A stretch of 61,613 bases of DNA, counting the filler, from an uncultured Clostridia bacterium (GTDB lineage Bacteria > CAYTYR01 > UBA6262): the NCBI GenBank assembly GCA_964441745.1. It is 5 parts of 5 records of this genome, joined end to end, with 100 filler letters (N's around TTAATTAATTAA, not from the genome) between each part and the next. Parts side by side here need not be neighbours in the genome. Positions count along the whole stretch, not along the records: positions 48,575 to 55,153 come from CAYTYR010000037.1; 4 more parts are not named here. The stretch is one strand, 5' to 3'. Shown here piece by piece: positions 19,011-55,253 of this stretch; position 1 is the stretch's first letter, and each line of letters begins with the position of its first letter. The position numbers and the translations under genes were made by a program. The notes beneath the pieces were generated by a model. It was given only the letters and a program-made list of their open reading frames with translations, did not search any database and was not told the DNA's origin.

Positions 19011-19110
19011 NNNNNNNNNNNNNNNNNNNNNNNNNNNNNNNNNNNNNNNNNNNNTTAATTAATTAANNNNNNNNNNNNNNNNNNNNNNNNNNNNNNNNNN
19101 NNNNNNNNNN
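19011..19110. other. Artificial contig linker
   Basis: N44-TTAATTAATTAA-N44 (stops in all six frames). Confidence 0.98.
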
Positions 19111-35644: not shown

Positions 35645-35744
35645 NNNNNNNNNNNNNNNNNNNNNNNNNNNNNNNNNNNNNNNNNNNNTTAATTAATTAA
35701 NNNNNNNNNNNNNNNNNNNNNNNNNNNNNNNNNNNNNNNNNNNN
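35645..35744. other. Artificial contig linker
   Basis: N44-TTAATTAATTAA-N44. Confidence 0.98.
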
Positions 35745-48474: not shown

Positions 48475-48574
48475 NNNNNNNNNNNNNNNNNNNNNNNNNN
48501 NNNNNNNNNNNNNNNNNNTTAATTAATTAANNNNNNNNNNNNNNNNNNNNNNNNNNNNNNNNNNNNNNNNNNNN
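48475..48574. other. Artificial contig linker
   Basis: N44-TTAATTAATTAA-N44. Confidence 0.98.
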
Positions 48575-48709
48575 CAAAACAATTTTAGAATCTTCTATTA
48601 TTTTGGCACATTCATCCTTATTTATTATTCTTTTTTCATTAAAATCAACTGGACGAATAATTACTTTCCAATATCCTTTTTCTTTAATTTTATCTATTAG
48701 CTTTTGCAT
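48575..48709 (-). CDS. Hypothetical protein, 5' part only (coupled to the AlbA-like gene)
   Basis: ATG 2 nt after upstream stop; IK.KGYWKVIIRP motif; AT-rich. Confidence 0.6.
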
Positions 48710-48711
48710 AG

Positions 48712-49410
48712 TTATTGTAATTTATCCCTTTTTAAGAATTTTCTATACTGTACTTCTGATTTGGCTTTCTTCACTTTTATAGCTTTTGATTTTAAATATT
48801 TAAATTTTACCGTTTTACAAACTGCTTCTAAATCTTTATAAATAATTTCCTCTTTACGACCTAATAGATTGCGAATTAACTCAGCCCATTCTTCATTTGT
48901 TTTGATCACTCTAGATTCTATAGGATCAGAAAGAGATCTAATATATAATTTTCCTTCTTCAAGCCGGCACCGACGATCCCTCGTTCTGTAATTATAGGTG
49001 CAAATTACAGGAACTGCTTCTTGTGATTCATAGACCTGCACTACTATAAATCTCTTATTAGCAGTTCCAATTTCAACAACTCCCCCAAATACTTCAAAAC
49101 TTATTGCCTGATTTGTTTTGCCTGAGAAAAAGCGAGCAATATCATCTTTACTGTCAAAGGAATTAAATTGCTTTATAGTCAAACCAGATCTTTCAAATAT
49201 ATTCCCATCTGTGCGGTCTCTCTGCTGAGTTATACCAAAAACTACAAACCCACCGTTTGTTATATTAGATAAAGCAAAAACTGCTTTCGCAATTTCAAAT
49301 TTTCTCTTATGTTGACCTTTATGCCAATGCAGTGGAGGTTTAAATTCCCATCTTCTTTCTTCTGTGCCATATTGAATATAATTAATCATTTCAGGTGTTA
49401 ATATTCGCAT
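48712..49410 (-). CDS. AlbA_2/Schlafen-like domain protein
   Basis: TEERRWEFK, A..ALSN..GG.VVFGI, G..YIR motifs; AT-rich. Confidence 0.75.
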   Translation of the reverse strand: MRILTPEMINYIQYGTEERRWEFKPPLHWHKGQHKRKFEIAKAVFALSNITNGGFVVFGITQQRDRTDGNIFERSGLTIKQFNSFDSKDDIARFFSGKTNQAISFEVFGGVVEIGTANKRFIVVQVYESQEAVPVICTYNYRTRDRRCRLEEGKLYIRSLSDPIESRVIKTNEEWAELIRNLLGRKEEIIYKDLEAVCKTVKFKYLKSKAIKVKKAKSEVQYRKFLKRDKLQ

Positions 49411-49444
49411 AAATATTCTTTTAAAATTGCCATTTTAAATTACC

Positions 49445-51202
49445 TTATCTCAACTTTATATGCAACTCTCTTAATTGTTTTTCTCCCACTGCTCCAGGAG
49501 CATCAGTCAAGAGACAGATCGCTTTCTGGGTTTTGGGGAAAGCGATCACTTCCCGGATGGAAGTTTCACCCAGCATCAAAGTCACCAGGCGGTCCAAGCC
49601 AGGGGCTATACCGCCATGCGGTGGCGCGCCATATTCAAAAGCTTCCAGCAGGAATCCGAATTTCTCCTTGGCCTCTTCCGCGCCGATCCCTAAAGTTTTA
49701 AAGACCCTTTCCTGGATCTCCTTGCGGTGAATACGGATACTGCCAGAGGCGATTTCCGTCCCGTTCAGGACCAGGTCATAGGACTGGGAACGCATCTGGC
49801 CCGGGTCAGTTTCGAAATAATCCACATCATCGTAGTTAGGCGCTGTGAAAGGATGATGCTCGCTCTCCCAGCGTTTTTCTTCATCATTATACTGGAACAT
49901 CGGGAAGTCAACCACCCAGAGGAAATTGAATTCCTTCTTATTGATCAGATTCAGTTTTTCTCCCAGGTGCAGGCGCAGCCGTCCCAGGCTCTCGGTCACG
50001 ATCTTGGGCACATCAGCCACGATCAGGATCATATCATTTTCTTTAGCCTGCATGGTTTCCTGCAATTTGGCCAATACTTCTGGCTTAAAGAATTTGGCGA
50101 TGGGAGAATCCATTCCCTGCGCGGTGATCTTAAACCAGGCCAATCCCTTGGCCCCGAATTCATTGGCCAGTTTGGTCAAGTCTTCTATTTCTTTGCGGGA
50201 ATACCCGGCAATCCCCGGAGCGCAAATTGCCCGGATCACGCCATTGTTCTTTGCCACTTCGGCAAAAACCTTGAAATCCGTATCCTTGACTACAGCCGTG
50301 ATATCCTTGATCTCCAGGCCAAACCGCAGGTCTGGCTTGTCACTGCCGTATTTGCTCTTGGCCTCAGCATAGGTCAGGCGCGGGAAAGGAGTTTTTAATT
50401 CCACGTTCATCATTTTTTGGAACACTGTGGACATTAGTCCTTCGCACAGGGCAAAAATATCTTCCTGGGTGACAAAAGACATTTCCATATCAATTTGCGT
50501 ATGCTCAGGCTGGCGGTCAGCGCGCAGGTCCTCATCACGGAAACACTTAGCGATCTGGAAATACTTCTCCATCCCGGCGACCATCAGCATTTGCTTGAAC
50601 AATTGCGGTGACTGCGGGAGAGCGAAAAACATATTCGGGTGCACGCGTGACGGCACCAGGTAATCCCTGGCTCCTTCTGGCGTGGACTTAGTCAGGATCG
50701 GAGTTTCCACTTCCACAAATCCCTGGTTATCCAGGTAATCCCGGATCACCTTCACCGTTTTATAACGGAAGATCAAATTATTTTTCATTCTGGGCCGGCG
50801 CAAGTCAAGATAGCGGTACTTTAGCCGGTTATCTTCATTCACTTCAGTTTCATCCGCTACTTCAAAAGGCAAGGTTTTGCTGGGATTCAAAACTTCAAAT
50901 TTTGCCGCTGATACTTCTATTTCACCAGTGGGTAATTTAGAATTCTCTGTGCCCGCCGGCCGCAAATTTACCTGCCCAGTCACGGTTATTACAAATTCAC
51001 TGCGCAGTTTTTCTGCTTCCTTGAATAATTCTTCTCCGGTGTTTTGGGTATTGAATACCACCTGGGTCAATCCGGCGCGGTCGCGCAGATCGATAAAGAT
51101 CAGTCCGCCATGATCCCGGCGGCTATGGACCCAACCGACCAGGATTACTGTTTGGTTAATGTTATTTTTCGTCAATTCTCCACAGGTATGCGTTCTTTTC
51201 AC
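49445..51202 (-). CDS. aspS: Aspartyl-tRNA synthetase (likely non-discriminating)
   Basis: RTHTCGEL, RRDHGGLIFIDLRD, STPEGARD, PQSPQLFKQ, FRDEDLRADRQPE, GAPPHGG...GLDR. Confidence 0.97.
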   Translation of the reverse strand: MKRTHTCGELTKNNINQTVILVGWVHSRRDHGGLIFIDLRDRAGLTQVVFNTQNTGEELFKEAEKLRSEFVITVTGQVNLRPAGTENSKLPTGEIEVSAAKFEVLNPSKTLPFEVADETEVNEDNRLKYRYLDLRRPRMKNNLIFRYKTVKVIRDYLDNQGFVEVETPILTKSTPEGARDYLVPSRVHPNMFFALPQSPQLFKQMLMVAGMEKYFQIAKCFRDEDLRADRQPEHTQIDMEMSFVTQEDIFALCEGLMSTVFQKMMNVELKTPFPRLTYAEAKSKYGSDKPDLRFGLEIKDITAVVKDTDFKVFAEVAKNNGVIRAICAPGIAGYSRKEIEDLTKLANEFGAKGLAWFKITAQGMDSPIAKFFKPEVLAKLQETMQAKENDMILIVADVPKIVTESLGRLRLHLGEKLNLINKKEFNFLWVVDFPMFQYNDEEKRWESEHHPFTAPNYDDVDYFETDPGQMRSQSYDLVLNGTEIASGSIRIHRKEIQERVFKTLGIGAEEAKEKFGFLLEAFEYGAPPHGGIAPGLDRLVTLMLGETSIREVIAFPKTQKAICLLTDAPGAVGEKQLRELHIKLR

Positions 51203-51236
51203 TAGTTTCTTCCCTTCTTAAATAAGATTACACAGA

Positions 51237-52502
51237 TTATTTCAGCTTAAGTTCTTTTAAATAACAAGAGAGGTCATTCATCTTTATTTCTTTCTGTTCC
51301 TTGGTCTGCATATCCCGTACCATGGCGATACCTTTCCTGATTTCTTCATCGCCGATAATAACGGTAATCTTGGCTTTGCCCTGGTCAGCCTGGCGCATCT
51401 GGCTCTTCAGGCTTTTATCTTCCAGGCCGGCTTCCACCCTCAGGCCGCTCTGCCGCAGGTCGCGAATGAAATTAAAAGCTTCCTGTTGGGCCTGTTTTCC
51501 CAGCAGGGCGAAATAAATATCCACCCAAGTTTCCATCAGAGCGCCGGCTCTTTGTTTTTTGAGCGCTTCAGTCACTCTTTCTATCCCCAGGGCAAATCCT
51601 ACCGCTGGCAATTCCGGCCCGCCAAGTTCCTTAACCAGCTTATCATAGCGGCCGCCTGCCGCCACCGCATCCTGGGCGCCCAGGCTCTCTGATTTTATTT
51701 CAAACACTACCCGGGTATAATAATCAAGCCCCCGGACCAGGAATTTATCAATGTTAAAAGCAATATTTTCTTTTTGCAGCGCCTGCTGGACATCCTGAAA
51801 ATTATCCCGGCAGGACTGGCACAGGTAATTCTCCATCGCCGGTATCCGGTTCACTACCTGGCGGCAAGTCTCTACCTTGCAATCCAATACCCGCAACGGA
51901 TTACGCGCCATTCGCCGCTGGCAATCGGCGCATAATTGCGCTGAATTTTCCTGCAGGAATTTTTGCAGGACCTCCCGGTAGGCCGGACGGCATTCAGGAC
52001 AACCTACGCTGTTGATATAAACTTTAATGCCCGCCAGGCCGATACGCGAGAAAAATTCCACGCACCATAAAATGATCTCTACATCCCGCCAGTAACTGCT
52101 GGACCCGATACTTTCCGCCCCGATCTGGTAAAATTGGCGGTATCTCCCGGCCTGCGGCCGCTCATAGCGGAACATCGGCCCCAAGTAATACAGCTTGGTG
52201 AGATTACCCTGAGTCAGGAGATTATTTTCGATTGCCGCCCGGACTACTCCGGCGGTGCCTTCCGGCCGCAAAGTCAGGCTGCGGCCTTTTTTATCGGGAA
52301 AAGTGTACATTTCTTTTTCGACAATATCAGTGTCTTCACCGATACTGCGGTTAAATAAACCTGATTCTTCAAAAATGGGCGTGCGGATTTCATTAAAACC
52401 ATAATCCTGCAGTAGTTCAACTGCGGTTTTTTCCAGGTACTGCCAGAGTTCGATCTCTGGCGGACAAATATCTTTAGCGCCTCTGACGCTGTTGTATTTC
52501 AT
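51237..52502 (-). CDS. hisS: Histidyl-tRNA synthetase
   Basis: LRPEGTA, FRYERPQAGRYRQF.Q, LVRGLDYY, GGRYD, GFALG.ER. Confidence 0.97.
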   Translation of the reverse strand: MKYNSVRGAKDICPPEIELWQYLEKTAVELLQDYGFNEIRTPIFEESGLFNRSIGEDTDIVEKEMYTFPDKKGRSLTLRPEGTAGVVRAAIENNLLTQGNLTKLYYLGPMFRYERPQAGRYRQFYQIGAESIGSSSYWRDVEIILWCVEFFSRIGLAGIKVYINSVGCPECRPAYREVLQKFLQENSAQLCADCQRRMARNPLRVLDCKVETCRQVVNRIPAMENYLCQSCRDNFQDVQQALQKENIAFNIDKFLVRGLDYYTRVVFEIKSESLGAQDAVAAGGRYDKLVKELGGPELPAVGFALGIERVTEALKKQRAGALMETWVDIYFALLGKQAQQEAFNFIRDLRQSGLRVEAGLEDKSLKSQMRQADQGKAKITVIIGDEEIRKGIAMVRDMQTKEQKEIKMNDLSCYLKELKLK

Positions 52503-52658
52503 GAAACCCTCAAGTTAAATTCTAAGCACTAAATTCTAAACTCTAAACAATTTCAAAACTCTAAATTCTAATGTTCTAAACATCTTACTATTTAAATTTT
52601 GGGTAATTAGTGCTTATTTAGAATTTAGAATTTAGAGCTTAGATATTAGAATTTATTT

Positions 52659-53576
52659 TTACAGTCTGTATACAATATTCTCTATGCCATTATTGGCGCT
52701 GCATTCCAAAACCTGGGTCGCCTGGTCATGCAGGTCAGACAAAACCTGGCCAACCTCTCCCGGTTGTTGGTGCGTAAACACTTCCAGCATAAAAATATCC
52801 CGGTACCCGATCTCTTTTAATCCGGTCATGATGCCAGCCCAAGGCACCCGGCCGTCACCTGGCGGCAGGTGATCATCAAATTGCCCGTGATTATCGGATA
52901 AATGCAGGCTAATGACCTTCTTATTAAAACTTTTCAGCATCCCCAACGGGTCCTGCGTCAGGTTGGCGTGTGAAGTATCAAAACAAATACCTACGTTTTC
53001 TGTATAGATGGCATCGATGAGCTGGTTCAGGTCATGAGCCTGGCCACCCAGCAAATGCGGCAGCAGGTTTTCCACTGCCAGCCGGACATGCTTGGTCTTA
53101 CAATATTCAATTAACTCAATCAGGCTTTCCTGGCATTTATTCAAGCGTCGGTATTTTTCATCCTGGTTATTCAAATCAAAAGCCTGCATACTGGGATGGA
53201 CAATAGCGATCTCGCCGGATAAATAGTGCAGTACATCAATACCTTTTTTGTATTCCCAGACCGCATGGACCCGGGTCCCTTCATCCAAGCTGGACAGGTC
53301 CATACCCGGCCAGACCGGCAAATGCAGTGAATGCACGAAAATACCGTGCTCTTTCAGCTTGTTGCGCAGGTTATAAGAATGGATTTTCTGCTGCCATATT
53401 TCTAATCCCTCTTTTAATAAAAAATTAGCATTATTATGAGCGACAGGGCTCGGCAGTCCCCATTCAATGGTATCCAGGCAGATCTCGATCACTTCAAATC
53501 CAGCGTCCTTGATCACAGGTAAATACGGAATCACATCATAATCATGGAAAAATCCCGTGGAAAGACCTAGCTGCAA
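52659..53576 (-). CDS. Xylose-isomerase/AP-endonuclease-2 TIM-barrel metalloenzyme
   Basis: S.H.P, VHP, AVENL, CFDTSHA, HLSDN.G..D.HLPPG.G, MLEV. Confidence 0.85.
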   Translation of the reverse strand: MQLGLSTGFFHDYDVIPYLPVIKDAGFEVIEICLDTIEWGLPSPVAHNNANFLLKEGLEIWQQKIHSYNLRNKLKEHGIFVHSLHLPVWPGMDLSSLDEGTRVHAVWEYKKGIDVLHYLSGEIAIVHPSMQAFDLNNQDEKYRRLNKCQESLIELIEYCKTKHVRLAVENLLPHLLGGQAHDLNQLIDAIYTENVGICFDTSHANLTQDPLGMLKSFNKKVISLHLSDNHGQFDDHLPPGDGRVPWAGIMTGLKEIGYRDIFMLEVFTHQQPGEVGQVLSDLHDQATQVLECSANNGIENIVYRL

Positions 53577-53691
53577 TTTAGCCCCCCATTTAAGACCTAA
53601 TACGCATATAGCTTATAGCGTATGGCTTATGGTAAAGACGATTTTGTTTGATTATTAGCTATGAGCCATTTGCGCTCTTGTTTTTAGCGTT

Positions 53692-55080
53692 TTATATTTT
53701 GTAGTTGGACAAATTAAAACCGCACCAGGGTTTGACGCAGTAGCCCTTTTCCTGATGGGAAATACAATTCAGATCCCGCTCATCGTCAAGATGGTCAGCG
53801 ATCAATCCGGCAAACAGGCGCACATAAAACTGAGCCCGGGTGCAGGCGTCATATTTAGACCAGAAATTACCCCAGCGGAAATCCCGTTCATATTTTGAGC
53901 GGATCAAGCCGGCAATATGTTTGGGATGCCAGTTCATTTTAGTCAAGACCCGGACGATCAGCTGGATATTAGTTGGTTTTAATAAATTATTATTTGGATA
54001 GCGCAAAGCGTGCGCAGCGCAAACCGGCAGGATATCAATTTTAAAATAGTCGTAACTGCGCGGCCATTCTTCCGGTGGATGCGAATATTCCCGGTCATAA
54101 TACCGGTGAAACTTATATAATTGTGAATGCTTGTAACTATTAATCAGTTTGCTTAAGGCCTTGGTCACATCCGGGATAGTGGTCTGCACCTGCGCGGCAT
54201 AGATCGCAGATTTATTAAAATCCTGGCGTAATTCCAGTAATTCTTTCAGGCTCAGGTCAATCCGGGGCAAGGTGATCTGGATCGGAGTTGATTCAGCTAC
54301 TAACTTGGTATACTTTTGCTGCTGGACTTTATGTTTCTGGTATAAGCTGAAAGCGCAGCGCATGTCGCGGATATTCATCGGATCGCCATACATGGACAAA
54401 TCGAGATTGATCGCCTCGCGCCCTTCCCCGCCCTTGCCCACCGCGGTATCAGTGCAAACTACCGGTATCTGCGTATGCAGCCGCACTTCCTTGATCACTA
54501 AATGCGATATGTATTCCAGAATCCGGCCCATGCCGTCATGCGCCAGGTTAAAACGTAAAGCTTCCAGGTTGGCCATGGACAAGTCACGAGTCGAAGCCAG
54601 GTTATCGCTTAATTTACCTATTTTTTCCAAAGTCTTATTGGCTTTAGAGTCTCTTTTTATTTGAAAAGCAAAATGATACCCCTGACCGGTCATAATAACG
54701 AGGGGATAAATATCCAGCCGCTGGAAGACTTTCAGGATAGCTTTGTACACCACTTCCATTCTGGTAAAAACTTCTTCCGGCTGCAAATACACTTTACCGG
54801 GAAAATCCATATTAAAATATTCAATATCCAAAACGCCCACGGTATAGTTCAAGTCGCTGACGGAACGGAAGATATCCAACCCTTTTCCCAGTATCCAGTC
54901 AAACTTATCCTTGGAAGTGGAAATAAAGTTGCGCGCATTAATATCTTCTTCCTGCAGCGCAGTACCGTACCCTACCAGGTACTGGGCGGAAAAGCCGTCT
55001 GGGTCATGAGCTTCACCCCCGCAATATTCGGCTATCCGTTTACGCACATGGGCATTACGGTAGAATTCTTTATCTGGCAT
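53692..55080 (-). CDS. Uncharacterised protein: AEP primase-like domain + PriL-like Cys4 C-terminal domain
   Basis: VLDIE, MTGQGYH, DLSMYGD...RDMRCAFS..QK; LPVC...NCISHQEKGYC...WC; GGGAGA RBS. Confidence 0.7.
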   Translation of the reverse strand: MPDKEFYRNAHVRKRIAEYCGGEAHDPDGFSAQYLVGYGTALQEEDINARNFISTSKDKFDWILGKGLDIFRSVSDLNYTVGVLDIEYFNMDFPGKVYLQPEEVFTRMEVVYKAILKVFQRLDIYPLVIMTGQGYHFAFQIKRDSKANKTLEKIGKLSDNLASTRDLSMANLEALRFNLAHDGMGRILEYISHLVIKEVRLHTQIPVVCTDTAVGKGGEGREAINLDLSMYGDPMNIRDMRCAFSLYQKHKVQQQKYTKLVAESTPIQITLPRIDLSLKELLELRQDFNKSAIYAAQVQTTIPDVTKALSKLINSYKHSQLYKFHRYYDREYSHPPEEWPRSYDYFKIDILPVCAAHALRYPNNNLLKPTNIQLIVRVLTKMNWHPKHIAGLIRSKYERDFRWGNFWSKYDACTRAQFYVRLFAGLIADHLDDERDLNCISHQEKGYCVKPWCGFNLSNYKI

Positions 55081-55153
55081 TTTTCTCCCTGCGGATGCAA
55101 ACAGATTATCAGTATCTGTCTGAATCCAGCTTATTATCCGTCTAAATCGTTCT

Positions 55154-55253
55154 NNNNNNNNNNNNNNNNNNNNNNNNNNNNNNNNNNNNNNNNNNNNTTA
55201 ATTAATTAANNNNNNNNNNNNNNNNNNNNNNNNNNNNNNNNNNNNNNNNNNNN
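55154..55253. other. Artificial contig linker
   Basis: N44-TTAATTAATTAA-N44. Confidence 0.98.

What the first reader, a model, noticed from the sequence alone, without database searches (positions are those of the whole stretch)
53692..55080. Bacterial single-chain PriS-PriL-like protein (AEP catalytic domain + putative 4Fe-4S domain) in an unannotated ORF
Seen: a 462-aa ORF with three AEP-like motifs in the correct order. These are hhhDhE (VGVLDIE), xGxGhH (IMTGQGYH) and a motif III region DLSMYGD..R.MRCAFS..QK resembling PriS D....D..R..R.P.S.h.K. The C-terminus has LPVC...(helical)...NC..HQEKGYC...WC. Established: archaeal/eukaryotic PriL-CTD binds 4Fe-4S through four Cys starting at a PPC motif, while bacteria replicate with DnaG. 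Inference: this is a fused PriS/PriL-CTD primase-polymerase in a chromosomal context with no helicase, ligase, Ku or Rep gene visible, so it may have a non-replicative job (repair, signalling or nucleotide transfer). Upstream context is lost at the contig break.
Basis: partly seen in the sequence, partly recalled or inferred. Interest (0 to 1): 0.85.

Follow-up and report, generated by a model that had tools for sequence, protein, structure and literature searches.

The report
Bacterial single-chain PriS–PriL-like primase-polymerase
This gene encodes a bacterial enzyme built like the one-piece DNA primase of tiny archaea, and it is genetically tied to an endonuclease-IV-like neighbour, which points to an undescribed DNA repair or re-priming module working alongside the normal bacterial primase.

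Summary
It has no Pfam, NCBIfam or PDB-sequence hit. It belongs to a family of about 470-aa "hypothetical proteins": 391 hits and 463 cluster representatives.

The DxE/D, GxH and D motifs and four Cys are conserved in 88 representatives at 26-50 % identity. They align collinearly, though weakly, with DPANN monomeric PriS-PriL primases.

New here: the downstream TIM-barrel gene keeps endonuclease IV's nine metal ligands. It is adjacent in 28 of 75 loci, co-occurs in 4 of 4 positive genomes, and is fused to this protein in two relatives.

DnaG is present in 5 of 5 genomes; Ku and ATP-ligase in 0 of 5.

This is a new AEP variant, probably used for repair or re-priming. No biochemistry has been done.

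The parts
53692..55080 (-). Whole gene: 462-aa single-chain AEP + PriL-CTD-like protein (stop codon included)
   Evidence: ORF and translation. 391 homologues. AF2 model pLDDT 92.1.
55085..55089 (-). GGGAG Shine-Dalgarno-like element, 4 nt before the ATG
   Evidence: Read directly from the sequence. Homologues start at the same alignment position.
54121..55080 (-). AEP catalytic domain, residues 1 to about 320
54820..54840 (-). AEP motif I (VGVLDIE; D85, E87)
   Evidence: D85 84/88; position 87 is E in 58 and D in 27 of 88. hhalign aligns it to the LDIDC motif of DPANN primases, whose two D are 29/29.
54670..54690 (-). AEP motif II (TGQGYHF; G134, H136)
   Evidence: G134 88/88; H136 81/88. Aligned to SGNKGFHI of DPANN primases, where G and H are 29/29.
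54328..54402 (-). Motif III region (D227 LSMYGD233 P..R238..R241..FS..QKHK)
   Evidence: D227 88/88, D233 81/88, R238 85/88, R241 84/88, F244 80/88, K249 77/88. D227 is assigned as motif III by order and invariance only; no residue-level superposition was available.
53695..54057 (-). C-terminal helical four-Cys domain (residues about 342-462), PriL-CTD-like
54019..54021 (-). Cys354 (in LPVC; family consensus LPPC)
   Evidence: 81/88. Aligned to the FPPC Cys of DPANN primases, which is 27/29.
53722..53766 (-). Cys439, Cys448, Cys453 (NC-x8-C-x4-C)
   Evidence: 80, 80 and 69 of 88. In register with NC-x11-C-x5-C of DPANN primases, which are 27, 23 and 26 of 29.
52659..53576 (-). Partner gene: 305-aa xylose-isomerase-like TIM barrel with an Endo IV-type nine-ligand metal site, 115 nt downstream
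   Evidence: PF01261 E 2.9e-33. Invariant H85, H127, E169, D200, H203, H225, D234, H236, E265. hhalign to E. coli Nfo: probability 96 %, E 4e-9. Adjacent in 28/75 loci. Fused in P0153 and P0155.

Best explanation

Architecture:
- The N-terminal domain is catalytic, with an intact two-metal/nucleotide site: D85-x-E87, G134-x-H136, D227.
- Helices join it to a PriL-CTD-like helical domain whose four conserved cysteines most likely hold a [4Fe-4S] cluster.
- This is the same layout as the monomeric PriS-PriL primases of DPANN archaea (NEQ395 type).

Context:
- It works beside DnaG, not in its place.
- It forms a functional pair with the protein encoded directly downstream, a TIM-barrel phosphodiesterase that keeps all nine metal ligands of endonuclease IV.

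Most likely mechanism (inferred):
1. The Endo IV-like enzyme incises at, or cleans the 3' end of, a damaged site.
2. The AEP then fills the gap or starts a new strand there.
3. The C-terminal domain holds the 5' end or the initiating nucleotide, as PriL-CTD does.
4. The host NAD-ligase seals the nick.

What is shown: fold, motif conservation, domain order, gene linkage, fusions, and the presence of DnaG.
What is inferred: Fe-S binding, catalytic activity, DNA as substrate, and the repair role.
For: Fold
- Whole model pLDDT 92.1.
- All listed Foldseek rows are AEPs.

Catalytic motifs in 88 representatives at 26-50 % identity
- D85 84/88, acidic position 87 85/88, G134 88/88, H136 81/88, D227 88/88.

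C-terminal domain
- PriL-CTD is the top VIA-align hit in both searches.
- The 10 best rows are all PriL-CTD or photolyase/cryptochrome helical domains.
- The four Cys are 81, 80, 80 and 69 of 88.
- PF04104 gives weak hits in 3/43 and 1/88 members.

Likeness to DPANN primases
- The Atlas's nearest named clusters (score 0.94) are DPANN proteins of about 460 aa carrying PF01896 + PF04104.
- hhalign to 29 DPANN monomeric primases is collinear. The N half gives E 0.008 over 111 columns (YY, motif I, motif II). The C half gives E 0.016 over 95 columns with four Cys in register.
- Reversed-template controls give E 0.28-0.48 over 14-29 columns.

Partner link
- A TIM orthologue (>250 bits) lies 6-465 bp downstream on the same strand in 28 of 75 loci with at least 1 kb downstream, across several phyla.
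- Among 61 sampled Verrucomicrobial genomes, all 4 AEP-positive ones have it adjacent. Fisher p = 2.4e-4, not corrected for relatedness.
- Two natural fusions, P0153 (747 aa) and P0155 (724 aa), keep the catalytic residues of both halves.

Partner chemistry
- hhalign to E. coli Nfo gives probability 96 %, E 4e-9. Eight of the nine ligand positions align to invariant residues, and the ninth is an invariant His in the expected place.

Not the replicative primase, not NHEJ, not mobile
- DnaG 5/5; Ku 0/5; ATP-ligase 0/5.
- The recurrent neighbour clusters I annotated are housekeeping genes.
- No PADLOC or PHROG family.
- Present in 8 of 8 genomes of the window's phylum.

Precedent
- Prim-PolC, the closest structure, does BER gap-filling in which Endo IV was the best end-processing nuclease (PMC5663958, passages seen).
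- In NEQ395 the PriL domain is needed for initiation (PMC10250227, passages seen).
Against: - No sequence-profile method places the protein in any AEP or PriL family at a curated threshold.
- hhalign probabilities to DPANN primases are only 3-5 %.
- The TIM partner is missing next to the gene in 47 of 75 loci. No orthologue was found in one genome (G007), and only a 69-bit match in another (G005).
- Five genomes have a TIM homologue without the AEP.
- By sequence the TIM barrel is closer to MJ1311, ketose 3-epimerases and the cobamide phosphodiesterase CbiR than to Nfo (19.9 bits against a cut-off of 129.65). Its substrate therefore need not be DNA.
- Canonical Nfo exists separately in two genomes.
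- Some family members lack the Cys (for example P0148, P0193, P0155).
- NEQ395 cluster mutants stay active in vitro, so the cluster may not matter for catalysis.
- Other recurrent neighbours (DUF374, LpoB, glycosyltransferases, hisS/aspS) say nothing about DNA repair.
- No expression data and no biochemistry exist.
Confidence: 0.55

Rival explanations
1. It is a stand-alone re-priming or back-up primase, PrimPol-like. It restarts synthesis downstream of lesions or primes special templates. The link to the TIM barrel is operonic convenience, or the TIM barrel only trims primers.
For: - The PriL-CTD-like domain is the hallmark of de novo initiation: the NEQ395 PriL domain is required for priming but not for elongation.
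- The architecture equals that of DPANN replicative monomeric primases.
- 47 of 75 loci lack the TIM neighbour.
- Nine loci carry a tandem, fully intact paralogue instead.
Against: - Natural fusions with the TIM barrel and 4/4 co-occurrence argue for a shared task.
- The closest structures are gap-filling and end-joining polymerases rather than PriS.
- No helicase or SSB partner turned up among the recurrent neighbours.
Confidence: 0.2
2. It is a make-and-break pair for a small nucleotide product (a linear di- or oligonucleotide signal, or a nucleotide-linked metabolite). The AEP makes only the first phosphodiester bond(s) and the tri-metal TIM barrel hydrolyses the product, by analogy with GGDEF-EAL.
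For: - Synthase and phosphodiesterase are fused or adjacent.
- One relative (P0171) carries an N-terminal CBS pair, a typical adenine-nucleotide sensor.
- The TIM barrel scores better against CbiR, a small-molecule phosphodiesterase, than against Nfo.
- No DNA-handling partners are found.
Against: - Every structural neighbour of both domains is a DNA/RNA-template enzyme or a DNA-binding module.
- The nine-ligand site is that of a DNA repair nuclease.
- No effector or receptor gene recurs nearby.
- There is no match in a defence-system library.
Confidence: 0.08
3. It is a domesticated or resident replication primase of an integrated mobile element or plasmid.
For: - Bacterial AEPs fused to PriL-related (PriCT) domains are 'nearly exclusively' on mobile elements according to PMC5862659 (passages seen).
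- Distribution is patchy in one Verrucomicrobial order: 4 of 61 genomes.
Against: - Neighbours are hisS, aspS, phoH, ybeY, glycosyltransferases and regulators. No integrase, Rep, helicase or phage genes appear among the recurrent clusters.
- No PHROG or PADLOC hit.
- Present in 8 of 8 genomes of the window's phylum.
- Synteny with the TIM barrel and hisS-aspS holds across divergent loci.
- GC content of the gene (0.42-0.49) matches its flanks.
Confidence: 0.04
4. It is a catalytically dead structural or regulatory protein that merely keeps an AEP-like fold.
For: No curated family model recognises it. A few representatives have substitutions at H136 or at position 87.
Against: The metal-ligand and nucleotide-binding residues are conserved at 92-100 % across 88 representatives at 26-50 % identity, and in both tandem paralogues. 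This is the pattern expected of an active site under selection.
Confidence: 0.03

Closest known systems
Monomeric PriS-PriL primase of DPANN archaea (NEQ395 of Nanoarchaeum equitans)
   Same: - One chain with an N-terminal AEP catalytic domain, a helical linker and a C-terminal four-Cys PriL-CTD-type domain.
- Similar size: 393-aa NEQ395, and 411-545 aa in the 29 DPANN proteins used, against 462 aa here.
- Motif I, motif II and all four Cys align collinearly.
- Similar Cys layout, one early and three clustered late: C289/C364/C376/C384 in NEQ395 against C354/C439/C448/C453 here.
- These are the nearest named clusters in the ESM Atlas.
   Different: - NEQ395 is the only primase of its archaeal host and is replicative. 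Here the hosts are bacteria with DnaG (5/5).
- Sequence similarity is below normal detection (hhalign probability 3-5 %).
- PF01896 and PF04104 do not recognise this protein.
- No Endo IV-like partner is described for NEQ395 in the passages seen.
Mycobacterial Prim-PolC and the LigD polymerase domain (NHEJ/BER-type bacterial AEPs)
   Same: - They are bacterial, chromosomal and non-replicative.
- Prim-PolC works in excision repair, where Endo IV was the best end-processing enzyme.
   Different: - Those enzymes have no Fe-S or PriL-like domain.
- They work with Ku and/or ATP-dependent ligases. Here Ku is 0/5 and ATP-ligase 0/5.
- PF21686 does not match.
- Identity in the structural alignments is only 10-12 %.
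Heterodimeric PriS/PriL primase of archaea and eukaryotes
   Same: - AEP catalytic core with DxD/E, sxH and D motifs.
- A helical domain with four Cys, the first in a PPC motif (family consensus LPPC).
- PriL-CTD of yeast and human are among the top hits for the C-domain.
   Different: - Here there is one polypeptide, without the PriL N-terminal domain.
- It lacks the PriS insertions.
- Z to PriS is about 12, lower than to LigD-Pol.
- The spacing of the last three Cys is tighter.
PolpTN2 and the PrimPol-PV1 families (AEP fused to PriCT-1/2 or PriL-like domains on plasmids and phages)
   Same: An AEP is fused to a PriL-related helical domain. PolpTN2 has a predicted 4Fe-4S PriL-like domain.
   Different: - Those are on mobile elements, usually with helicase domains.
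- This family sits among housekeeping genes, with no helicase and no PriCT Pfam hit.
- The supplementary family lists of PMC5862659 could not be seen, so overlap cannot be fully excluded.
Endonuclease IV (Nfo), for the partner protein
   Same: - Xylose-isomerase-like TIM barrel (PF01261).
- Eight of nine metal-ligand positions align to invariant residues, and the ninth is an invariant His just outside the aligned block.
   Different: - It fails the Nfo family cut-off: 19.9 against 129.65 bits.
- By sequence it is closer to MJ1311, ketose epimerases and CbiR.
- Canonical Nfo is encoded elsewhere in two carrier genomes.

Membership tests
AEP superfamily (archaeo-eukaryotic primase / primase-polymerase) | Catalytic fold: N-terminal alpha/beta module plus an RRM-like core | tested here: met
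   [not shown]
AEP superfamily | Motif I hhhDhD/E (metal ligands) | tested here: met
   VGVLDIE. D85 84/88; position 87 is E in 58 and D in 27 of 88. It aligns to LDIDC of PF01896-positive DPANN primases. The motif definition is as quoted in PMC5862659.
AEP superfamily | Motif II sxH (nucleotide binding) | tested here: met
   G134-Y-H136. G 88/88 and H 81/88. It aligns to GFH of DPANN primases.
AEP superfamily | Motif III hD/E (third metal ligand) | tested here: inconclusive
   D227 is 88/88 and lies in the right order after a beta-strand. No residue-level superposition or profile alignment covered it.
AEP superfamily | Primase and/or polymerase activity | not testable with these tools
   Needs an enzyme assay.
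AEP superfamily | Recognition by a curated AEP sequence model (PF01896, PF09250, PF21686 and others) | tested here: not met
   0 Pfam and 0 NCBIfam families at E<=10. No AEP catalytic family appears in the per-member scans of 43 and 88 members.
PriL C-terminal Fe-S domain (PF04104 C-terminal part) | Helical fold of PriL-CTD | tested here: inconclusive
   [not shown]
PriL C-terminal Fe-S domain | Four conserved Cys, the first in a PPC motif | tested here: met
   Consensus LPPC. Cys 81, 80, 80 and 69 of 88. They are in register with the four Cys of DPANN PriL domains.
PriL C-terminal Fe-S domain | PF04104 at its curated threshold | tested here: not met
   No hit for this protein. Weak hits occur in 3/43 members (best E 0.0021) and 1/88 (E 0.029).
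PriL C-terminal Fe-S domain | Binds a [4Fe-4S] cluster | not testable with these tools
Needs anaerobic purification.
NEQ395-type monomeric replicative primase | PriS domain and PriL-CTD in one chain, in that order | tested here: met
   Domain order from the fold searches and collinear hhalign.
NEQ395-type monomeric replicative primase | Demonstrable sequence homology | tested here: inconclusive
   hhalign E 0.008 (N half) and 0.016 (C half), probability 3-5 %. Reversed controls give E 0.28-0.48. Atlas feature score 0.94.
NEQ395-type monomeric replicative primase | Sole primase of the genome | tested here: not met
   DnaG catalytic core is over its cut-off in 5 of 5 carrier genomes.
LigD-Pol / Prim-PolC (NHEJ/BER AEPs) | Partnership with Ku and/or an ATP-dependent ligase | tested here: not met
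   Ku 0/5. PF01068 0/5. Neither is among the 18 recurrent neighbour clusters annotated. The genomes are partly incomplete MAGs.
LigD-Pol / Prim-PolC (NHEJ/BER AEPs) | Closest catalytic-domain structure | tested here: met
   [not shown]
Endonuclease IV family (partner protein) | Nine metal-ligand residues (H69, H109, E145, D179, H182, H216, D229, H231, E261 in E. coli; numbers recalled from memory, residue identities checked) | tested here: met
   Eight align by hhalign to invariant H127, E169, D200, H203, H225, D234, H236, E265. Invariant H85 lies where H69 is expected but outside the aligned block. PMC2770678 speaks of 'nine residues' important for catalysis.
Endonuclease IV family (partner protein) | TIGR00587 / Nfo equivalog cut-off | tested here: not met
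   19.9 bits against a cut-off of 129.65. It is therefore Endo IV-like, not Nfo.

The most novel reading that the evidence does not exclude
The pair is not a DNA repair device. It is a make-and-break system for a short nucleotide product. The PriS-PriL-like enzyme performs only primase-style initiation (a di- or oligonucleotide), and the fused or adjacent tri-metal TIM-barrel phosphodiesterase destroys the product. That would be a new bacterial nucleotide-signalling chemistry built from a primase.

A less extreme and more probable novel reading (about 0.4): this is a third bacterial AEP repair or re-priming pathway, independent of Ku, LigD and LigC. It uses a true PriS-PriL-type initiator coupled to an Endo IV-like nuclease.
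Probability: 0.08. Interest if true: 0.9.

Novelty: new variant of a known kind. Interest (0 to 1): 0.72.

Why it matters
Textbook and review statements hold that PriL-type Fe-S domains accompany replicative primases of archaea and eukaryotes. They also hold that bacterial AEPs are either Ku/LigD-type repair polymerases or mobile-element primases with PriCT domains (PMC5862659, passages).

This family differs on each count:
- It is a chromosomal bacterial AEP with the full single-chain PriS + PriL-CTD-like layout.
- It is strongly conserved: 45-55 % identity across the phyla named in the record titles.
- It is universal in the 8 genomes of the window's phylum.
- It is invisible to Pfam and NCBIfam.
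- It is tied by adjacency, co-occurrence and gene fusion to an Endo IV-like enzyme.

If active, it would define a new bacterial DNA-synthesis pathway operating beside DnaG. It would also be a compact, soluble model for how a PriL-type Fe-S domain supports initiation. Finally, it bears on whether PriS-PriL-type primases were exchanged between DPANN archaea and bacteria.

Three cultured, non-pathogenic carriers (two Methylacidimicrobium species and strain LP2A) make it testable.

Tried and rejected
- **Sequence searches of the protein.** Pfam, NCBIfam and PDB sequences gave nothing. The A1 profile against PDB sequences gave one chance hit, an isochorismatase at E 0.88.
- **Per-member Pfam scans.** Only stray weak hits appeared.
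- **PADLOC and PHROGs.** No family for the protein or its tandem paralogue. The TIM barrel gave only E 0.026 and 0.17 noise.
- **Foldseek on the C-domain alone.** No match; best E 2.8.
- **Complex prediction of the protein with the TIM barrel.** 'No answer', score 0.00. This is not evidence either way.
- **The look-up of sequencing runs.** No RNA holder was listed. The DNA holders are aquatic and groundwater metagenomes, one of which may be the source.
- **Promoter/terminator scan of the contig.** Promoter-like sites were not above shuffles, and nothing was usable on co-transcription.
- **Search for longer fused forms (810-2310 aa).** None found.
- **The genome search 'own'.** No genome is held for the window.
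- **The search of earlier findings.** Closed.
- **Model coordinates.** Not available in the script box, so Cys-Cys distances and active-site geometry could not be measured.
- **First neighbour count.** My crude ORF caller found 21 loci. It undercounted the TIM neighbour in high-GC genomes and was replaced by the HMM count, 28 of 75.
- **DnaG replacement.** Rejected: DnaG is present in 5/5.
- **Ku/LigD NHEJ.** Rejected: 0/5 and 0/5.
- **hisS/aspS synteny as a functional clue (tRNA-related role).** Considered but not adopted. The TIM link persists without hisS in the Methylacidiphilaceae loci, and hisS-aspS is a common gene pair (that last point is recalled from memory).
- **Literature searches**. 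No description of this family or of an AEP/xylose-isomerase-like pairing was found. The library lacks most subscription journals, and supplements were closed.
Full report
**1. Observation**

One search lists a 462-aa ORF at 53692..55080 on the minus strand with an ATG start. One search gives its translation (P0001).
- VGVLDIE (residues 81-87)
- IMTGQGYH (129-136)
- DLSMYGDPMNIRDMRCAFSLYQKHK (227-251)
- LPVC (351-354)
- NCISHQEKGYCVKPWCG (438-454)

A GGGAG element sits 4 nt before the ATG.

The 'contig break' is an N44-TTAATTAATTAA-N44 spacer at 55154-55253. Identical spacers lie at 19011-19110, 35645-35744 and 48475-48574. The window is therefore a chain of contigs, and only 48575-55153 is true context for this gene.

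On that contig, all on the minus strand, lie:
- an AlbA_2/Schlafen-like gene
- aspS
- hisS
- a 305-aa xylose-isomerase-like TIM barrel (52659-53576)
- the ORF itself

**2. A real, conserved, unnamed family**

The protein has no Pfam, NCBIfam or PDB-sequence match, even at E 10.

The word-indexed search found 391 proteins at E<=1e-3. The 120 listed are 427-495 aa and 44-90 % identical, cover 88-100 % of the query (97 % or more in 116 of the 120), have no precomputed Pfam domain, and every source name is 'hypothetical protein'.

The exhaustive search of 50 %-identity representatives found 463 at E<=1e-3, 342 at <=1e-10 and 166 at <=1e-30.

A scan of species-representative genomes gave 101 confirmed loci, of which 80 were kept. 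Their record titles name:
- Elusimicrobia/Endomicrobia
- Auribacterota
- Hydrogenedentota
- Lindowbacteria, Schekmanbacteria, Wallbacteria
- Thermodesulfobacteriota
- Chlamydiota
- Ignavibacteria
- several MAGs labelled 'Clostridia'
- Methylacidiphilaceae, including the cultured Methylacidimicrobium cyclopophantes, M. tartarophylax and strain LP2A

**3.

In 43 homologues (A1) the invariant positions include Y135, D233, R241, F244, S245, Q248, K249, H250, C354, C439, C448 and C453. D85, E87, G132-G134, H136 and D227 are at 90 % or more.

In 88 cluster representatives at 26-50 % identity (A2):

| Position | Count of 88 |
|---|---|
| D85 | 84 (plus 2 E) |
| Position 87 | E 58, D 27 |
| G134 | 88 |
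| H136 | 81 |
| D227 | 88 |
| D233 | 81 |
| R238 | 85 |
| R241 | 84 |
| C354 | 81 |
| C439 | 80 |
| C448 | 80 |
| C453 | 69 |

The E/D alternation at position 87 is the classic DxD/DxE pattern of AEP motif I. Some of the shortfall at C453 is from gaps or variable spacing. A few members have genuinely lost the cysteines (for example P0148, P0193).

**4. Fold**

With A1 as input, AlphaFold2 gave pLDDT 92.1 and pTM 0.92.

Foldseek against PDB:
- Four hits at E<=1e-3, all Prim-PolC chains.
- Every row listed (ranks 1-50) is an AEP enzyme or a complex containing one: Prim-PolC, LigD-Pol, Pri1/PriS, PrimPol, RepB', CAPP, D5.

VIA-align against 48,161 chains:

|---|---|---|
| Prim-PolC 6sa0_A | 16.5 | rmsd 3.5, 251 aligned |
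| LigD-Pol 2fao | 15.3 | |
| LigD-Pol 2iru | 15.2 | |
| Archaeal NHEJ polymerase 5dmu | 15.0 | |
| PriS 1v33 | 11.8 | |
| PriS 1zt2 | 11.6 | |
| Human Pri1 | 11.7 | |

For residues 342-459 the same run gave:

- Foldseek finds nothing (best E 2.8).

The N-terminal AEP assignment is therefore firm. The PriL-CTD assignment is specific in rank but weak in score.

**5. Link to monomeric PriS-PriL primases**

The ESM Atlas's nearest named clusters (feature score 0.94) are DPANN archaeal proteins of about 460 aa carrying both PF01896 and PF04104. This is a lead, not a test.

I fetched PF01896-positive frames from 41 genomes of the phylum of one handle (39 of 41 had a match). I took the 29 frames of 400-570 aa out of 30 recovered, dropping L098 (773 aa), and ran hhalign against A2.
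- **N half:** E 0.008, 111 columns. It aligns the N-terminal YY, motif I (LDIEY to LDIDC) and motif II (TGxGYHF to SGNKGFHI).
- **C half:** E 0.016, 95 columns. It aligns LPPC to FPPC, the GW..xxI helix, and NC...C...C to NC...C...C.
- **Probabilities:** only 3-5 %.
- **Reversed-template controls:** E 0.28-0.48 over 14-29 columns.

The DPANN columns involved are those proteins' own invariant D-x-D (29/29), G and H (29/29), and four Cys (27, 27, 23 and 26 of 29).

NEQ395's cluster cysteines are C289, C364, C376 and C384, and its PriL domain is needed for initiation but not elongation (PMC10250227, passages seen). The Cys topology here (354, 439, 448, 453) is the same: one early and three clustered late.

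**6. The partner**

The downstream TIM barrel is PF01261 (E 2.9e-33).

*Its metal site.* An alignment of 18 neighbours (A4) has invariant H85, D93, H127, E169, H174, D200, H203, H225, D228, N229, D234, H236 and E265.
- hhalign of A4 against E. coli endonuclease IV gives probability 96 %, E 4.3e-9 over 164 columns.
- The nine Endo IV ligand positions I recalled (H69, H109, E145, D179, H182, H216, D229, H231, E261) are indeed those residues in the E. coli sequence.
- Eight of them align to invariant partner residues. The ninth corresponds in position to invariant H85, just outside the aligned block.
- PMC2770678 refers to 'nine residues' important for Endo IV catalysis, and lists MJ1311 as a predicted Endo IV homologue (passages). 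MJ1311 is the partner's best PDB sequence match (E 1.9e-15).

*Evidence against a simple Nfo reading.*
- The partner fails the Nfo model: 19.9 bits against a cut-off of 129.65.
- It scores higher, though below cut-offs, against psicose epimerase and the cobamide phosphodiesterase CbiR.
- Canonical Nfo is encoded elsewhere in two carrier genomes.
- That ketose epimerases use only four ligands is recalled from memory, not tested here.

**7. Evidence that the two genes work together**

(a) *Adjacency.* An HMM of A4 against all frames of the 80 loci finds an orthologue (>250 bits) 6-465 bp downstream on the same strand in 28 of the 75 loci that have at least 1 kb downstream. In the other 47 nothing above 31 bits lies in the fetched DNA. 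This replaces my first ORF-based count of 21. The 28 include five Methylacidiphilaceae/Verrucomicrobia loci that are only 43 % identical to the query.

(b) *Co-occurrence.* In 61 sampled genomes of the order of strain LP2A, the AEP is in 4. The TIM family at E<=1e-25 is in 9.
- All 4 AEP-positive genomes have it, 11-55 bp downstream.
- 5 genomes have a slightly lower-scoring homologue (252-255 bits) without the AEP.
- 52 have neither.
- Fisher p = 2.4e-4, not corrected for relatedness.

(c) *Fusion.* Two representatives, P0153 (747 aa) and P0155 (724 aa), are AEP-plus-TIM fusions. Both keep all AEP catalytic residues and all nine TIM ligands. P0155 has lost the first Cys.

Counter-evidence:
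- One carrier genome has the orthologue at a distance (G006).
- One has only a 69-bit match (G005) and one has none (G007).
- Nine loci instead carry a tandem paralogue of the AEP protein (38-41 % identical) with every catalytic and Cys residue intact.

**8. What it is not**

- **Not a DnaG replacement.** The DnaG catalytic core is over its cut-off in 5 of 5 carrier genomes.
- **Not Ku/LigD or LigC.** Ku is in 0 of 5 and ATP-dependent ligase in 0 of 5. These are partly incomplete MAGs.
- **Not obviously mobile or defence-related.**
  - The 18 recurrent neighbour clusters I annotated are hisS/aspS-linked housekeeping genes: phoH, ybeY, a 7TM-HD protein, CNNM, glycosyltransferases, PGM, Crp, sigma-54 regulators, DUF374 and LpoB.
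  - There is no PADLOC or PHROG family.
  - The gene is in 8 of 8 genomes of the window's small phylum, though in only 4 of 61 in the Verrucomicrobial order.

**9. Mechanism proposed**

*Shown:*
- an AEP catalytic domain with a conserved active site
- a C-terminal four-Cys helical domain of PriL-CTD type
- genetic coupling to a tri-metal, Endo IV-like TIM barrel
- coexistence with DnaG

*Inferred:* the pair is a repair or re-priming module.
1. The Endo IV-like enzyme creates or cleans a 3'-OH at a lesion.
2. The AEP extends it or initiates nearby, with the Fe-S domain holding the 5' end or the initiating nucleotide.
3. NAD-ligase seals the nick.

The closest structure, Prim-PolC, does exactly this kind of short-gap filling, with Endo IV as the preferred end-processor (PMC5663958, passages). 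An archaeal PriSLX primase has also been reported to mediate double-strand-break repair (PMC12019639; abstract only).

I put 0.55 on this reading. The rivals are:
- a stand-alone re-priming primase: 0.20
- a nucleotide-product make/break pair: 0.08
- a mobile-element primase: 0.04
- a dead enzyme: 0.03

**10. Comparison and novelty**

Architecturally it is the bacterial counterpart of NEQ395-type monomeric primases. Structurally its catalytic domain is nearest to LigD-Pol/Prim-PolC. It fails the curated sequence models of all of these.

PMC5862659 (passages) states that PriL accompanies replicative primases and that PriCT domains are exclusive to mobile-element AEPs. This family fits neither statement.

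Five literature searches found no description of it or of an AEP/xylose-isomerase-like pairing. Three limits apply:
- The library misses most subscription journals.
- Supplements, including the family lists of PMC5862659, were closed.
- Iyer et al. 2005 is only recalled, not seen.

I rate it a new variant of a known kind, with interest 0.72.

**11. Limits**

- No coordinates were available to measure Cys geometry.
- The complex prediction gave no verdict.
- No RNA run was listed.
- No whole genome is held for the window itself.
- The papers cited were seen only as search listings, abstracts or 'find' passages, not read in full.

Noticed in passing
window 19011-19110, 35645-35744, 48475-48574, 55154-55253: The window is a concatenation of contigs joined by N44-TTAATTAATTAA-N44 spacers. 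Gene order across these joints carries no meaning; for example, MurJ 'upstream' of the ORF is on another contig.
   Followed up: yes
L006, L007, L027, L030, L035, L039, L040, L041, L057 (gene +1 after the match): Nine loci carry a second, tandem paralogue (475-510 aa, 38-41 % identical to the query). It has all catalytic and Cys residues intact and a more canonical 'SGYH' motif II. None of these loci has the TIM-barrel neighbour. A heterodimer or a division of labour is possible.
   Followed up: partly
G002 (strain LP2A) and G003 (M. cyclopophantes), whole genomes: No Pol I polymerase domain (PF00476) was found in either cultured Methylacidimicrobium genome, while 3 other carrier genomes have it. 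If real, the AEP could be taking over gap-filling there. The 5'-3' exonuclease and other polymerases were not checked.
   Followed up: no
P0171 (612 aa; relative): One relative has an N-terminal CBS-domain pair fused to the intact AEP/four-Cys protein. This hints at regulation by adenine nucleotides.
   Followed up: partly
G104:C1:1600073-1601591: In one Verrucomicrobial genome both the AEP match (profile 4-397 only) and the adjacent TIM match (profile 144-237 only) are truncated. This may be joint decay of the pair.
   Followed up: no
L064 (3.8-kb contig of a MAG labelled Nanoarchaeota) versus L090 (same MAG, G008): The MAG holds a bacterial-type copy (42 % identical to the query) on a short contig. 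It also holds its own 468-aa NEQ395-type PriS frame elsewhere. This is either a mis-binned bacterial contig or a case of transfer.
   Followed up: partly
window 48712-49410 (-): An AlbA_2/Schlafen-like 232-aa gene lies in a stretch of very low GC (0.24-0.33, against about 0.45-0.52 in the neighbouring aspS), at the edge of the contig. It may be foreign DNA.
   Followed up: no
L021, L031, L037, L038, L043, L046, L052: In seven loci the gene sits in a tight string with overlapping stops and starts (-23 to -14 nt on the DUF374 side; -52 to +30 nt on the LpoB side): DUF374, then the AEP, then LpoB, then an unnamed protein of about 473 aa with no Pfam or NCBIfam hit. This is an envelope-type operon context that the repair reading does not explain.
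   Followed up: partly
window 49445-52502 (-) and 25 related loci: In my first ORF-based survey, hisS lies in 25 loci (at +2 in 18 of them) and aspS in 19 (at +3 in 13), downstream of the AEP/TIM pair. hisS stays close even in some loci where that survey saw no TIM barrel (L054, L026, L008, L053). The HMM recount later found the TIM barrel in three of those (L026, L008, L053), leaving L054 as the only such locus.
   Followed up: partly
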